From the human T2T-CHM13v2.0 reference genome, Homo sapiens, in the NCBI RefSeq assembly GCF_009914755.1, contig NC_060929.1: 64,000 nt of DNA; one strand, given 5' to 3'. Positions 15,801 through 19,584 of the stretch are shown here, piece after piece; position 1 is the stretch's first letter, and each line of letters starts with the position of its first letter. A program made the position numbers and the translations under genes. Below the pieces are notes generated by a model. That model was not told the origin of the DNA. It saw only the letters and a list, made by a program, of their open reading frames with translations, and did not search any database.

Positions 15801-16374
15801 CCAGGTGCAGGTCTTCCGCCGTGACCCGGTACCCCAGCTCTAAGGGAGGTGGCAGCATCAAAGGCTCCCCTCGCCTGCTTGGCAGCAGGCGAATCTTGCG
15901 TCTACGGGGCCTAGAGGCCTGGGATCTGGGGGAGCCACCCCTTGGGGCGAGTGTCTCCCCTGGTGCTGTATCTGCCGCCTTTTCACACCGTGTGTGACCC
16001 GAAGAGACAGCCTGAGGCCTGTCCTCACTCACTGTCTTTGAGTAACTGAGGGTCAGCTGGCAGCGGGATGAGGCTGGTCCCCTCCTCTGCTTTAGCCCCG
16101 GCAAGCCTCCCGTGGAGCTGTAGGAGCTGGAGATGGCATTTCGTTTTGTGCTCGAGCTCGTCCAGGATGTCTGGGATGTCTGGTTATATCTGATTTCTGA
16201 GCTCTGGGCATCGAGGTCTGTCTGCAGAGGCCCGGGCCTGGGCACAAAGGGAGAGAGGCCTCCATTGTCCCGCAGGGGCCAAAATGCAGACCGTGCATCC
16301 CCGGTGACCTCGGGGACCGTTCTCTGATCAGCAGGATTTTCTTGGACTCTGGGGTCCTTGTCCTGCTCAGGCAT
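12880..16374 (-). CDS. POM121L1: Putative POM121-like protein 1-like, intronless, 1164 aa from the first ATG (MPEQDKDP...); the open frame extends to a GTG at 16698
   Basis: Uninterrupted 3.8-kb frame. POM121-type motifs [13 protein letters not shown] and [27 protein letters not shown]. Ser/Pro/Ala/Arg-rich. Position 16698 is GTG; the first ATG is at 16374 (context gggATGc). Translation is unproven and the symbol denotes the family only. Confidence 0.72.
   Translation of the reverse strand: [1164 protein letters not shown]
12980..16209 (-). repeat. Coding tandem repeat inside the ORF: units of 936, 807 and 816 bp plus a truncated fourth (also at +20286 and +40580)
   Basis: The anchor TTATATCT (encoding RYN) occurs at 16184, 15248, 14441 and 13625; all spacings are multiples of 3. 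Confidence 0.95.
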
Positions 16375-17222
16375 CCCTGCCCTGCTCTCCTTGAGGGCCC
16401 TCAACACTATCTTCCCTGGACACAAGTCTGGGGACAGCCGGGTGTTGAGGACCCCAAAGGGGTGACTACCTGCTCCTGGGCCCCACAGAGTCCTTGTGCT
16501 CAGTGTAGTGGCTGAGCTGGGGGATGCCCTGGAATTCGGAGCACACAGCACTGGCTTACTGTGGTACCTGTGCAGTGAAATTGGAGACAGAATCACCAGG
16601 ATGGAACACAGGTCTTGCAGGATCACGGAAAACCTTCTTAGAGTTGTCTTGACACCACTGATGTTGAGTGTCCGGGTGTTTGTAGGATGGCCTGCCACTC
16701 AGTCCAGGGGCAGGAGCAACGGGGAGATCCCACAAGCAAAGTGAACTGGGCGATGGGCTGAAGGGGCTCTAGGCAACTGAGCCCTACTCGCAGGTCCTCG
16801 GCCTTGGCCCAAACAGGAATGAGGGGCACAGAGTGCCCGGGTAACCGCTCCTGGGAGCAGTGGGGAACTGTCGGATACTTGAACTCTCGAGAGCTGGGCT
16901 CTGAGCGTCCTCGTCCAGCTGCCAACTTGGCCAAAGGCTAAGCCAGCAGATTGTTCTGTTGCCGGGCGACGCGACTTCTAAACCTGAGGGAGTGGGCATG
17001 TGAGCACATAATGGCACCAGTGACAGAGCGACCATAATGGATTAATAAGCGCAGCCAGGTACCCGCGCAAGGCACTTGCTGGCAATGGCAGGAGGCGGAC
17101 GTGGGGGGGGTCGTGCAATAGGTACTGGAGGGAGAGACGTGGGCACAAAGGTCGCGGGAGGAACAGGTGCCCACAATGGCTGCAGATCTGCCCGTGGATC
17201 ACTGAAGATTCCTGCTCTCCTG

Positions 17223-17476
17223 CTGAGGTGGAGACTGCAGTGAGCTGAGATCGCACCATTGCACTCCAGCCTGGGCAACGAGTGCAAAACTCAGTCTCCA
17301 GATAAAAAAAAGAAAAAGAAAAAAAAGAGGCCGGGTGTGGTGGCTTATGCCTATAATCCTAGCACTTTGGGAGGTCGGGGTGGACGGATCACGAGATCAG
17401 GAGTTGGAGGCCAGCCTGGCCAACATAGTGAAACCCCGTCTCTAGTAAAAATACAAAATTTAGTCAGACATGGTGG
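17223..17476 (+). mobile_element. Alu 3' fragment (17223-17328) plus an Alu left arm (17329-17476) fused to the LTR
   Basis: Alu consensus ends abruptly at CATGGTGG. Confidence 0.85.
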
Positions 17477-19584
17477 GCAGGAGAGAGCATGTGCAGGGGA
17501 ACATCCATTTATAAAACCATCAGACCTCATGAGACTTATTCACTACCATGAGAACAGCATGGGGGAAACTGCCTCCATGATTCAGTTATCTCCACCTGGC
17601 CCCACCCTTGACACATGGGAATTGTTACAATTCAAGATGAGATTTGGGTGGGGACAGAGCCAAACCATATAATTCTTCCCCGGCCCCTCCCAAATCTCAT
17701 GTCCTCATATTTCAAAAGCAATCGTGCCTTCCCCTAAGTCCCCCAAACTCTTATTTCAGCATTAACTCAAAATTCCATAGTCCAAAGTCTCATCTGAGAC
17801 AAGGCAAGTCCCTTCCACCTGTGAGCCTGTAAAACCAAAAGCAAGTTAGTTATTTTCTAGATACACAGGGATACAGGCATTGGGTAAATACACCCGTTTC
17901 AAACGGGAGAAATTGGCCAAAGCGAAAGAGCTACAGGCCCCATGCAAGTCCAAAACCCAGCAGGCAAATCTTAGAGCTCCAAAATGACCTCCTTTGACTC
18001 CATGTGTCACATCTAGGTGATGCAAGAAGTGGGTTCCCAGGGTCTTGGGCAGCCCCGCCCCTGTGGCTTTGCAGGGTACAGCCCCCCCTTCTGGCTGCAT
18101 TGAGTGTCTGCAGCTTTTCCAGGCACACAGTGCAAGCTGTCAGTGGATCTACCATTCTGGGGTCTGGAGGATGGTGGCCCTTTTGTGACAGCTCTGCTTG
18201 GCAGTACCCCAGTGGGGACTCTGTGTGGGGGCTCCAACCCCATATTTCCCTTTGACACTGCCCTAGCAGAGGTTATCCATGAGGGCCCCCCGCTGCCCCG
18301 CACAGCAAACTTTTGCCTGGATTTCCAGGCATTTTCATACATCTTCTGAAATCTAGGCGGAGGTTCATGAACGTTAATTCTTGACTTCGGTGCATCTGCA
18401 GGCTTAACACCACCTAGAACCTGAAAGGCTTGGAACTTGCACCCTCTGAAGCCATGGCCTGAGGTGTACCTTGGCCCCTTTTACCTATGGCAGGAGCAGC
18501 TGGGATGCAGGGCACCAGGTTCCTAGGCTGCACACAGCAGGGGGTTCTGGACTCACAAGAGCATTTTTCCTTCTAAGCCTCCTGGCCTGTGATGGGAGGG
18601 TCTGCTGTGAGGGTCTCTAACATGCCCTGGAGACATTTGCCCCATTGTCTTGGTGATTAACATTTGGCTCCTCATTACTTATGCAAATTTCTACAACCCA
18701 GTCTCCTGAGAAAATAGATTTTTCTTTTCTGTTGCATCATCAGGCTACAAATTTTCTGAACTTTTATGCTCTGCTTCTTCTCGAATGCTTTGCTGCTTAG
18801 AAATTTCTTCTGTCAGATACCTTAAATCATCTCTCTCAAGTTCAAAGTTCCACAGATCTCTAGGGAACTCTAGAAAAAAATTCTTATTTTCACTCTTTCC
18901 CGCCTATCTTATGCCCGTTTCTAACACAGGTGCACAGTGCCTGCAGTGTCTTTGCATAGTAAGAGTGACTTTACTCCATTTCCCAACAAATTCCTCATCT
19001 CCCTCTGAGACCACCTCCGCCTGGACCTTATTGTCCATATCACTATTAACATTTTGGTCAAAGCCATTCAACAAGTCTCTAGGAGGTTCCAAACTTTCCC
19101 ACATTTTCCTATCCTCTTCTGAGCCTTCCAAACTGTTCCAGCCTCTCCCTGTTACCCATTTCCAAAGTTGCTTCCACATGTTCGGGTATCTTTACAGCAG
19201 CACCCCACTCTACTGGTATCAACTTATTGTATTAGTCTGTTCTCACACTGCAAATAAAGACATACCTGAGACTGGGTAATTTATAAAGGAAAGAGGTTGA
19301 ATTGACTCACAGTTCTGCATGGCTGGGGAGGCCTCACAATCATGGTGGAAGGCAAGGAGGTGCAAAAGCATGTCTCACATAGTGGCAGGCAGGAGAGAGC
19401 ATGTGCAGGGGAGCTCCCATTTATAAAACCATCAGATCTCATGAGACTTAGTCACTACCACGAGAACAGTATGGGGGGAACCATCCCCATGATTCAGTTA
19501 TCTGCACCTGGCCCCACCCTTGACACGTGGGAATTATTACAATGCAAGGTGAGATTTAGGTGGGGACCCATCCAAACTATGTCA
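17477..19584 (-). mobile_element. THE1-type MaLR LTR retroelement: 5' LTR 19228-19584, internal region about 17672-19227, truncated 3' LTR about 17477-17671
   Basis: Reverse-complement LTR with termini TGTATTAGTC...CCAAACTATGTCA; the internal-region start (CAGCACCCCACTCTACTGGTA) abuts it; a second LTR copy shares GGAGAGAGCATGTGCAGGGG...TTTATAAAACCATCAGA. Subfamily not determined. Confidence 0.88.
17508..17588 (-). promoter_or_regulatory. Candidate LTR promoter: DUX4-type motif TAACTGAATCA (17578-17588) and TATAAA (17508-17513), pointing toward the POM121-like ORF
   Basis: The + strand TGATTCAGTTA fits the reverse complement of TAAYBBAATCA; the same pair is present in the 5' LTR (19490-19500 and 19420-19425). 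Activity is inferred. Confidence 0.45.

What the first reader, a model, noticed from the sequence alone, without database searches (positions are those of the whole stretch)
16374..19584. THE1 LTR positioned as a possible DUX4-responsive promoter reading into the POM121-like ORF, with both LTR polyA signals disabled
Seen: the element is co-oriented with the ORF, about 1.1 kb upstream of the first ATG. Both LTRs carry TAACTGAATCA (17578-17588, 19490-19500) and TATAAA. The proximal LTR stops about 30 nt past its TATA, having lost about 160 bp that are still present in the distal LTR. In the distal LTR the expected ATTAAA reads ATTCAA (19297-19302, against a recalled consensus). Known: DUX4 binds TAAYBBAATCA in THE1/MaLR LTRs and turns them into promoters in cleavage embryos, testis and FSHD muscle. 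Inference: LTR-initiated transcripts could run unterminated into the ORF in every unit.
Basis: partly seen in the sequence, partly recalled or inferred. Interest (0 to 1): 0.8.

Follow-up and report, generated by a model that had tools for sequence, protein, structure and literature searches.

The report
THE1 LTR start upstream of POM121-like ORF
An ancient retroelement (THE1) was joined by a segmental duplication to the front of a POM121-like gene copy and probably supplies its annotated start site, but a link to the embryonic factor DUX4 is untested and the "disabled polyA signals" are incidental.

Summary
The element has a 357-bp 5' LTR (19584-19228, minus strand), an internal part, and a 3' LTR cut at 17477. 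The cut is a segmental-duplication breakpoint. A single-copy parental THE1 at chr5:37.73 Mb keeps the full 3' LTR, and chr22/chr20 POM121L copies match only from 17476 downstream. At least 25 chr5/chr6 copies share the junction.

- **Motif:** the DUX4-type motif is a family trait, present in 10 of 14 unrelated THE1 LTRs.
- **Hexamer:** ATTCAA already stands at the parental locus, so it pre-dates the fusion.
- **PolyA path:** lack of canonical polyA hexamers is not unusual (48% of simulations give zero).
- **Start site:** four RefSeq models start at the equivalent of 19451. That is 5 nt from the position homologous to the 5'-RACE end of the DUX4-dependent THE1B-HEY1 transcript, and upstream of the TATAAA.
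- **Splice donor:** the donor used by THE1B-HEY1 is intact at 19310.

LTR promoter use is therefore plausible (about 0.55). DUX4 dependence is untested (about 0.15-0.2): published peak calls dropped multi-mapping reads, and only about 1% of bound THE1B LTRs are activated. This is a new member of a known kind, of modest interest.

The parts
19228..19584 (-). Distal (5') THE1-type LTR, 357 bp, with TG...CA ends
Evidence: Read directly. It matches 14 unrelated dispersed LTRs at 87-89%.
19490..19500 (-). DUX4-type motif TAACTGAATCA in the distal LTR
   Evidence: Identical in the 13 of 13 duplicon copies examined that hold this LTR, and at the parental locus.
19451..19456 (-). Likely start-site zone, 34-39 nt downstream of the motif and 26-31 nt upstream of the TATAAA
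   Evidence: The RefSeq model starts of units 2 and 3 map to the equivalent of 19451. The 5'-RACE end of THE1B-HEY1 is homologous to 19456, aligned by eye without indels.
19420..19425 (-). TATAAA of the distal LTR
   Evidence: Kept in 13 of 14 unrelated LTRs.
19305..19310 (-). Splice donor GTGAGT inside the distal LTR
   Evidence: Exon 1 of the THE1B-HEY1 RACE clone ends at the homologous AACT|GTGAGT (by eye). Kept in 13 of 13 copies, in the parental distal LTR, and in 12 of 14 unrelated LTRs.
19297..19302 (-). ATTCAA at the place where most relatives read ATTAAA
   Evidence: ATTCAA in 12 of 13 copies and at the parental locus; 11 of 14 unrelated LTRs read ATTAAA.
17673..19227 (-). THE1 internal region
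   Evidence: Lies between the LTRs. 96% identical to the parental element in L009.
17477..17672 (-). Proximal (3') LTR, truncated. It keeps the motif (17588-17578), the start-site homologue (about 17544) and the TATAAA (17513-17508), but has lost the donor and the hexamer region.
17476..17477 (.). Segmental-duplication breakpoint joining chr5:37.73-Mb-derived sequence to POM121L-duplicon sequence
   Evidence: The L009 homology runs 19884..17476. The chr22/chr20 homology runs 17476..14973. The junction is full-length in 25 loci, and chr22/chr20 match only the Alu side.
17222..17476 (+). Two Alu-type fragments, antisense to the ORF
   Evidence: Rfam Metazoa_SRP hit at 17330-17444 on the plus strand, E 5.8e-9, below the gathering score. 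Many dispersed 93-98% matches to this side of the junction. The name Alu is recalled.
16375..17221 (-). POM121L-derived upstream region. Candidate native promoter zone at 17200-16801 and an acceptor-like site with its G at 17125.
   Evidence: GC 0.59-0.60 and CpG o/e 0.56-0.66. Present at 91-92% in chr22/chr20 copies that lack the THE1. The acceptor comes from a crude scan.
12880..16374 (-). 1164-aa POM121-like ORF with internal 807-bp in-frame repeats
   Evidence: Pfam POM121 PF15229, E 4.4e-68, 4 stretches. Repeats.
12810..12815 (-). Only canonical polyA hexamer (AATAAA) on the minus strand between 19700 and 12700
36660..39870 (-). Same arrangement in unit 2 (offset +20286)
   Evidence: One difference from unit 1 in 3585 nt.
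56954..60164 (-). Same arrangement in unit 3 (offset +40580)

Best explanation
A THE1-type MaLR element was placed directly upstream of a POM121-like ORF, in the same orientation, by a segmental duplication. The breakpoint fell inside the element's 3' LTR on one side and inside an Alu on the other. The chimera then spread to at least 25 copies on chr5 and chr6, six of them in this 20.3-kb tandem array. The distal (5') LTR supplies a start site at about 19451-19456, roughly 35-40 nt downstream of its homeodomain-type motif and upstream of its TATAAA. Transcripts starting there run, unspliced or via the LTR donor at 19310, towards the ORF. The likely setting is germline, early embryo or cancer, where THE1 LTRs are active. 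Shown: the anatomy, the origin of the junction, and the coincidence between the annotated starts and a proven THE1B start. Inferred: that the LTR is really used, in which tissue, and by which activator. The 'disabled' polyA features are by-products of history, not adaptations.
For: Origin of the junction:
- The parental single-copy element with a complete 3' LTR matches window 19884..17476 at 96%.
- chr22/chr20 POM121L copies match 17476..14973 at 90-92%.
- The junction is full-length in 25 loci.

LTR use:
- The RefSeq models of units 2 and 3 begin at the equivalent of 19451.
- By span arithmetic on the hub table, LOC107987432 and LOC124900567 begin there too.
- The THE1B-HEY1 5'-RACE clone from DUX4-expressing myoblasts begins at the position homologous to 19456, and its first exon ends at the homologue of the 19311|19310 donor.
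- The donor is intact in 13 of 13 copies.
- No canonical polyA hexamer lies between the LTR and the ORF stop.

Context from papers, passages read:
- THE1 LTRs start transcripts in human oocytes (PMC6102241) and in 4-8-cell embryos (PMC10616205).
- Peptides for POM121L1P-like ORFs occur in cancer lines and sperm, and GENCODE v49 calls nine chr5 ORFs coding (PMC12679747).
Against: - The RefSeq models are predictions whose supporting reads I could not see. The unit 1 model starts at 19062 instead.
- An unspliced transcript from 19451 has a 3077-nt leader with 62 upstream ATGs.
- A CpG-richer zone at 17200-16801, shared with chr22 copies that have no THE1, could be the real promoter.
- dN/dS of the ORF is 0.48-1.33 in 13 comparisons, with small counts, so there is no sign of constraint. 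PMC12679747 likewise reports no conservation support.
- Conservation of the LTR features among copies is uninformative, because the copies differ by only 0-4% overall.
Confidence: 0.55

Rival explanations
1. One reading: DUX4 binds the LTR motif(s) and switches the LTR on in cleavage embryos, testis and FSHD muscle, making the POM121-like genes a hidden multi-copy DUX4 target. This is a sub-case of the best explanation.
For: - Both LTRs match TAAYBBAATCA. The motif is in print (PMC12376486).
- The annotated start lies within 5 nt of a DUX4-dependent THE1B start, about 35-40 nt downstream of the motif.
- Peak calling in PMC3836709 discarded multi-mapping reads. Its hg19 table has no peak in chr5:21,383,991-21,571,154, so the array has not been tested.
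- The sperm and cancer peptide pattern resembles that of DUX4 targets. That resemblance is recalled.
Against: - The motif is a family trait, present in 10 of 14 unrelated LTRs.
- Only 29.6% of THE1B and 32.9% of THE1C LTRs were bound, and 1.0% and 1.3% of bound ones activated (PMC3836709 Table 1).
- The site differs from the optimal TAATCTAATCA at three degenerate positions.
- Neither GUSBP nor POM121L occurs in the 7 readable supplementary files of PMC3836709. No paper links DUX4 with POM121L or GUSBP beyond gene lists.
- The same THE1 start may be used with other activators.
Confidence: 0.17
2. The ORF is transcribed from a native, POM121L-derived promoter in the 0.85 kb upstream of the ATG (about 17200-16800). 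The THE1 is a passenger, and the LTR-start models are over-extended predictions or reads shared among paralogues.
For: - The 847-bp upstream region is conserved at 91-92% in 8 chr22 copies and 1 chr20 copy that lack the THE1.
- It holds the only CpG-richer stretch of the region: o/e 0.56-0.66, GC about 0.6.
- A start there would leave 3 upstream ATGs instead of 62.
- The unit 1 model does not start in the LTR.
Against: - CpG o/e is borderline for an island.
- No annotated model in the hub table starts in this zone.
- Four models start at one precise LTR position that matches a RACE-proven THE1B start. That is hard to explain by arbitrary extension.
Confidence: 0.3
3. Nothing functional: the LTRs are silent relics, and the ORF stays open only because the copies are young and the sequence is poor in stop codons. 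Occasional RNA or peptides come from aberrant expression in cancer cells.
For: - dN/dS is about 1.
- ORF length varies widely and some paralogues are broken: 275 and 539 codons in the 6p copies, 94 codons in chr20.
- PMC12679747 reports no conservation and says most peptides come from cancer lines.
- Absence of polyA hexamers is what chance gives.
Against: - Some peptides come from sperm.
- The RefSeq models start consistently in the LTR.
- The ORF is intact at 1164-1166 codons in the 5p14, 5p13 and two 5q13 copies.
Confidence: 0.15

Closest known systems
THE1B-HEY1 chimeric transcript (DUX4-dependent; Young et al. 2013, PMC3836709)
   Same: A THE1-type LTR in sense orientation upstream of a host ORF. 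The homologous start position (RACE end against annotated start, 5 nt apart) and the homologous LTR splice donor are both present here.
   Different: The HEY1 LTR lies about 40 kb upstream and the transcript is spliced, while the models here are unspliced and about 3 kb upstream. DUX4 dependence is proven there and untested here. This case is multi-copy and was created by a duplication junction, not by an insertion next to a gene.
THE1B LTR as alternative promoter of CSF1R in Hodgkin lymphoma (cited in the discussion of PMC3836709, passage seen)
   Same: A derepressed THE1 LTR drives a downstream gene in cancer cells. POM121L1P-like peptides come mostly from cancer lines.
   Different: No cancer expression data were examined for this locus. 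The CSF1R paper itself was not read.
THE1-initiated transcription units in human oocytes and THE1D-initiated novel genes in 4-8-cell embryos (PMC6102241, PMC10616205; passages)
   Same: The same LTR family acts as a start site in germline and early embryo, giving activator contexts other than DUX4 in muscle.
   Different: Neither paper mentions POM121L or GUSBP in its main text. Their supplements were not searched.
POM121L1P-like ORFs on chr5, chr6 and chr22 (PMC12679747)
   Same: The same ORFs: three or four long POM121-derived repeats, multiple chr5 copies, no conservation support, and nine chr5 ORFs called coding in GENCODE v49.
   Different: The five passages that mention POM121L1P say nothing about a promoter, a THE1 LTR or the duplication junction.
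5q13.2 'GUSBP' 21.3-kb tandem array (Warburton et al. 2008, PMC2588610)
   Same: A paralogous array of the same duplicon. The T2T copies at chr5:71.67-71.71 Mb are spaced about 21.3 kb apart.
   Different: That paper only lists the array. It has no mention of 5p14, THE1 or POM121.

Membership tests
THE1 / ERVL-MaLR LTR element | Two direct LTRs of about 350 bp with TG...CA ends flanking an internal part of about 1.5 kb | tested here: met
   The 5' LTR is 357 bp (19584-19228) with TG..CA ends. The internal part is 1555 bp. The 3' LTR is 88% identical over the 196-198 nt that remain. The parental copy has both LTRs complete.
THE1 / ERVL-MaLR LTR element | Similarity to the dispersed family, and subfamily assignment against a repeat library | tested here: inconclusive
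   7277 first-look candidates in the genome. 14 unrelated copies align at 87-89% over about 355 nt. No Dfam or RepeatMasker library was available, so the name THE1 and any subfamily (A-D) remain recalled labels.
THE1 / ERVL-MaLR LTR element | Short target-site duplication at the insertion | tested here: inconclusive
   Not testable in the window, because the 3' end is missing. At the parental locus the flanks read CCTAC and CCTAA, a 4-of-5 match.
DUX4-responsive LTR promoter | Match to the DUX4 site TAAYBBAATCA in the LTR | tested here: met
   But 10 of 14 unrelated LTRs also match, so this does not discriminate.
DUX4-responsive LTR promoter | DUX4 occupancy in cells | not testable with these tools
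   The published peaks used only uniquely mapping reads. The hg19 table is empty across chr5:21.384-21.571 Mb. The parental locus could not be placed in hg19.
DUX4-responsive LTR promoter | Transcript induced by DUX4 | not testable with these tools
   No expression data were at hand. GUSBP, POM121L, SMA4 and SMA5 are absent from the 7 readable supplements of PMC3836709.
LTR-derived promoter of a host gene | LTR upstream of the ORF, in the same orientation, with a transcript joining the two | tested here: met
   Orientation and distance. RefSeq predicted single-exon models span from the LTR to the ORF (hub table; starts mapped). These models are predictions.
LTR-derived promoter of a host gene | Experimentally mapped capped 5' ends in the LTR at this locus | not testable with these tools
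   Only an indirect match is available, to the RACE end of another THE1B.

The most novel reading that the evidence does not exclude
The roughly 25 THE1-LTR/POM121-like cassettes on chr5 and chr6, including the 5q13 SMN-region duplicons, form a hominoid-specific multi-copy gene family. DUX4 would switch it on from the LTR in cleavage-stage embryos, male germ cells, FSHD muscle and DUX4-positive cancers. It would have been missed so far because reads from it multi-map, and it would explain the sperm and cancer peptides that led GENCODE v49 to call nine chr5 copies coding.
Probability: 0.15. Interest if true: 0.6.

Novelty: new member of a known kind. Interest (0 to 1): 0.35.

Why it matters
The POM121L1P-like ORFs on chr5 were recently promoted to coding genes on peptide evidence from cancer lines and sperm (PMC12679747), yet nothing in print says what drives them. 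Searches found nothing, and the passages read do not address it. A THE1 LTR start created by a duplication junction would give a simple reason for germline- and cancer-restricted expression. It would also be one more case of a retroelement promoter captured by gene duplication rather than by insertion. The cassette sits in copy-number-variable duplicons, including the SMN region, that standard unique-mapping analyses ignore. If DUX4 does drive it, it adds a hidden multi-copy target to the FSHD and embryonic genome activation programme. If not, it is an ordinary LTR-promoter case.

Tried and rejected
1. PolyA depletion as a signal. No AATAAA or ATTAAA lies in 19395..12880, but first-order Markov simulations give a mean of 0.73 and zero in 48% of 2000 runs. 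Rejected as evidence. Weaker variant hexamers do occur on the path: AGTAAA at 18975, CATAAA at 18768, TATAAA at 19285 and 17513, and ACTAAA four times.

2. Hexamer loss as an adaptation. ATTCAA is already present at the parental locus. Rejected.

3. Using the published DUX4 peaks.
- The array region is a 187-kb hole in the hg19 table.
- I tried to place the 96%-identical parental THE1 in hg19 by matching motif spacings of 1910, 2763 and 4673 bp against 29 peak positions typed from the hg19 table for chr5:36.78-38.07 Mb. No offset gave two coincidences.
- The only doubly bound THE1 pair there is 1885 bp apart, and its neighbours do not fit.
- Result: at most one parental LTR is in the list, and I cannot say which, if any.
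A 40-kb fetch went through.

5. Conservation of the motif, TATA box and donor among copies. The copies differ by only 0-4%, so conservation proves nothing.

6. Position of the THE1B start from CAGE (PMC5932608). It appears only in Figure 2B, which is not held.

7. The FSHD ATAC preprint that uses T2T has nothing on this locus.

8. Not visible to me:
- The PDF supplements of PMC3836709 (Figures S1-S13).
- The part of its Table S1 beyond the 4-million-character cut, although chr5 and chr6 lie in the held part.
- The supplements of the other papers, which were not searched.

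
Full report
**1. Observation**

On the minus strand the region reads as a THE1-type LTR element:
- a 357-bp LTR with TG...CA ends at 19584-19228;
- an internal part at 19227-17673;
- a second LTR starting at 17672 that stops at 17477.

The two LTRs form a 198-nt direct repeat at 88% identity. TAACTGAATCA lies at 19500-19490 and 17588-17578 and recurs at the same two places in units 2 and 3. 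That is 6 matches to TAAYBBAATCA against 0.62 expected. TATAAA lies at 19425-19420 and 17513-17508. ATTCAA lies at 19302-19297. The unit period is 20286-20297 bp, and each of the three units carries an intact 1164-codon ORF. Over 3585 nt, units 2 and 3 differ from unit 1 at a single base, 19085.

**2. What the truncation is**

The whole assembly could be searched.
- The distal LTR occurs at 97-100% identity in duplicon blocks on chr5 (21.49-21.59, 34.31-34.43, 70.4-71.7 and 100.0/100.9 Mb) and on chr6 (26.76 and 57.77 Mb). It also occurs once at chr5:37.73 Mb, next to a second, full-length LTR.
- The locus at chr5:37.73 Mb (L009) matches window 19884..17476 at 96% and carries a complete 3' LTR. 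The match stops 159 bp before that LTR's end.
- POM121L copies on chr22 and chr20 match window 17476..14973 at 90-92%.
- A 100-nt probe across the junction is found full-length at 25 chr5/chr6 loci. chr22, chr20 and many dispersed loci match only its Alu side (40 of 657 candidates scored, so 25 is a lower bound).
- The sequence at 17330-17444 on the plus strand gives an SRP/7SL-type Rfam hit (E 5.8e-9, below the gathering score), as expected of an Alu.

So the 'lost 160 bp' mark a segmental-duplication breakpoint at 17476/17477. It joined a chr5p13-derived piece ending inside a THE1 3' LTR to a POM121L duplicon beginning inside an Alu. At the parental locus the flanks read CCTAC and CCTAA, consistent with a decayed 5-bp target-site duplication.

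**3. Are the LTR features special?**

I compared the 3 window units, 11 of the 22 other duplicon copies, and the parental locus.
- The distal motif and TATAAA are identical in all 13 copies that hold the distal LTR, and at the parental locus. One 5q13 copy lacks this LTR.
- ATTCAA is present in 12 of 13 copies and already at the parental locus, so it pre-dates the fusion with POM121L.
- The proximal motif reads TAATTGAATCA at the parental locus and in 4 older copies, and TAACTGAATCA in 10 younger ones. Both fit the IUPAC motif.
- Two 5q21 copies have TATCAA in place of the proximal TATAAA.

Among 14 unrelated THE1-type LTRs (87-89% identical), 10 carry a motif match at the same position, 13 keep TATAAA and 11 read ATTAAA at the hexamer position. 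The motif is therefore a family trait. Conservation among copies that differ by 0-4% says nothing about constraint.

**4. The path to the ORF**

No AATAAA or ATTAAA lies on the minus strand between 19700 and 12816. The only one, at 12815-12810, follows the stop codon. This is not unusual: Markov simulations of 19395..12880 give a mean of 0.73 and zero in 48% of 2000 runs.

An unspliced RNA from 19451 has a 3077-nt leader with 62 upstream ATGs. From about 17480 there are 6, and from about 17100 there are 3. The only CpG-richer stretch is 17200-16801 (o/e 0.56-0.66). It belongs to the POM121L-derived part that chr22 copies share without any THE1.

**5. Where a THE1 LTR really starts**

The supplement of Young et al. 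2013 gives the furthest-upstream 5'-RACE clone of the DUX4-dependent THE1B-HEY1 transcript. The RACE used the GeneRacer kit, which as I recall selects capped ends. Read in reverse complement and aligned by eye without indels to the distal LTR:
- its 5' end corresponds to 19456, which is 31 nt upstream of the TATAAA and 34 nt downstream of the motif;
- its first exon ends at the homologue of AACT|GTGAGT (19311|19310), 3 nt before the hexamer position.

The RefSeq models of units 2 and 3 start at 39737 and 60031, both equivalent to 19451. By span arithmetic on the hub table, the models of the two flanking units do the same. The unit 1 model starts at 19062.

The donor is intact in 13 of 13 copies and in 12 of 14 unrelated LTRs. 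Three things follow:
- LTR use is supported independently of the TATA argument.
- Because the proven chimera leaves the LTR by splicing before the hexamer, the state of the hexamer matters little.

The truncated proximal LTR keeps the motif, the start homologue (about 17544) and the TATAAA, but has no donor. No model starts there.

**6. DUX4**

The motif is in print (PMC12376486, passage), with TATCTAATCA-type optimum given there as TAATCTAATCA. In PMC3836709 Table 1 (passage):

| Subfamily | Bound by DUX4 | Bound copies activated |
|---|---|---|
| THE1B | 29.6% | 1.0% |
| THE1C | 32.9% | 1.3% |
| THE1A | 17.7% | 2.2% |
| THE1D | 11.0% | 2.7% |

Peaks were called from uniquely mapping reads only. 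Their hg19 table has no peak between chr5:21,383,991 and 21,571,154, so the array is untested rather than negative. I could not place the parental copy in hg19. GUSBP, POM121L, SMA4 and SMA5 do not occur in the 7 readable supplements. No paper in the library links DUX4 with POM121L or GUSBP beyond gene lists. THE1 LTRs also start transcripts in oocytes and in 4-8-cell embryos, so DUX4 is one candidate activator among several.

**7. The ORF**

It is a POM121-family protein (Pfam PF15229, E 4.4e-68, four stretches) built from 807-bp in-frame repeats. Reading from the homologous ATG:

| Copy | Open codons |
|---|---|
| 5p13 | 1165 |
| 5q13 (six copies) | 354, 354, 897, 1166, 1166, at least 1212 (runs off the fetched stretch) |
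| 5q21 (two copies) | 708, at least 1218 (runs off the fetched stretch) |
| 6p11 | 275 |
| 6p22 | 539 |
| chr22 (two copies) | 387, 387 |
| chr20 | 94 |

dN/dS over the first 270 codons is 0.48-1.33 in 13 comparisons, with small counts. PMC12679747 (passages) describes the same ORFs:
- they consist of three or four POM121-derived repeats;
- they have no conservation support;
- peptides come mostly from cancer lines, with some from sperm;
- nine chr5 ORFs are now called coding in GENCODE v49.

The passages I read say nothing about their promoter.

**8. Verdict**

A THE1 LTR captured at a duplication junction plausibly supplies the annotated start of a multi-copy POM121-like gene (about 0.55). 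DUX4 dependence is possible but untested (about 0.15-0.2). The polyA argument does not carry weight. This is a new member of a well-known kind, the MaLR LTR used as a promoter. Its modest extra interest comes from its copy number, its invisibility to unique-mapping analyses, and the recent coding status of the ORFs.

Noticed in passing
window 12975-15780 (minus strand), and the same in units 2 and 3: The ORF contains about 3.5 tandem copies of an 807-bp (269-codon) in-frame repeat. The repeat number differs among paralogues, giving ORFs of 354, 897, 1164-1166 and at least 1212 codons. This fits the 'three or four long repeats' described in PMC12679747.
   Followed up: partly
window 19085 and 19062: The only difference between unit 1 and units 2/3 in 3585 nt is at 19085. 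The unit 1 RefSeq model starts 23 nt downstream of it, at 19062, whereas the others start in the LTR. This suggests that the models rest on the same reads and that paralogue assignment shaped the unit 1 model.
   Followed up: no
window 17125 (minus strand): An acceptor-like site, a long pyrimidine run followed by CAG, lies 750 nt upstream of the ATG in the POM121L-derived part. It was the only hit of a crude scan. It could receive the LTR donor at 19310. This was not tested.
   Followed up: no
L034 (chr5:70.454-70.461 Mb): One 5q13 copy lacks the distal LTR. Its homology to the window begins only at 18880, yet it keeps the junction, the proximal LTR and an ORF open for at least 1212 codons.
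   Followed up: no
hg19 chr5:21,383,991-21,571,154 (Table S1 of PMC3836709): A 187-kb stretch has no DUX4 peak in a region that otherwise has a peak every 25-40 kb. This is as expected if the duplicated array was unmappable.
   Followed up: partly
L009, T2T chr5:37727506-37727516 (minus strand): A third DUX4-type motif match (TAACTCAATCA) lies 2.8 kb beyond the parental THE1, outside the part that was duplicated.
   Followed up: no
window 17221-17277 (minus strand): A weak Rfam match to mir-3135 (31.3 bits against a gathering score of 80; E 4.8e-4) lies in the second Alu-type fragment. It is probably Alu-derived similarity only.
   Followed up: no
T2T chr5:71.67-71.71 Mb (L007, L008, L025): A paralogous tandem array with about 21.3-kb spacing lies in the 5q13 SMN region. 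It matches the 'GUSBP' 21.3-kb x 2 array listed by Warburton et al. 2008. Its ORFs there are short, at 354 codons.
   Followed up: partly
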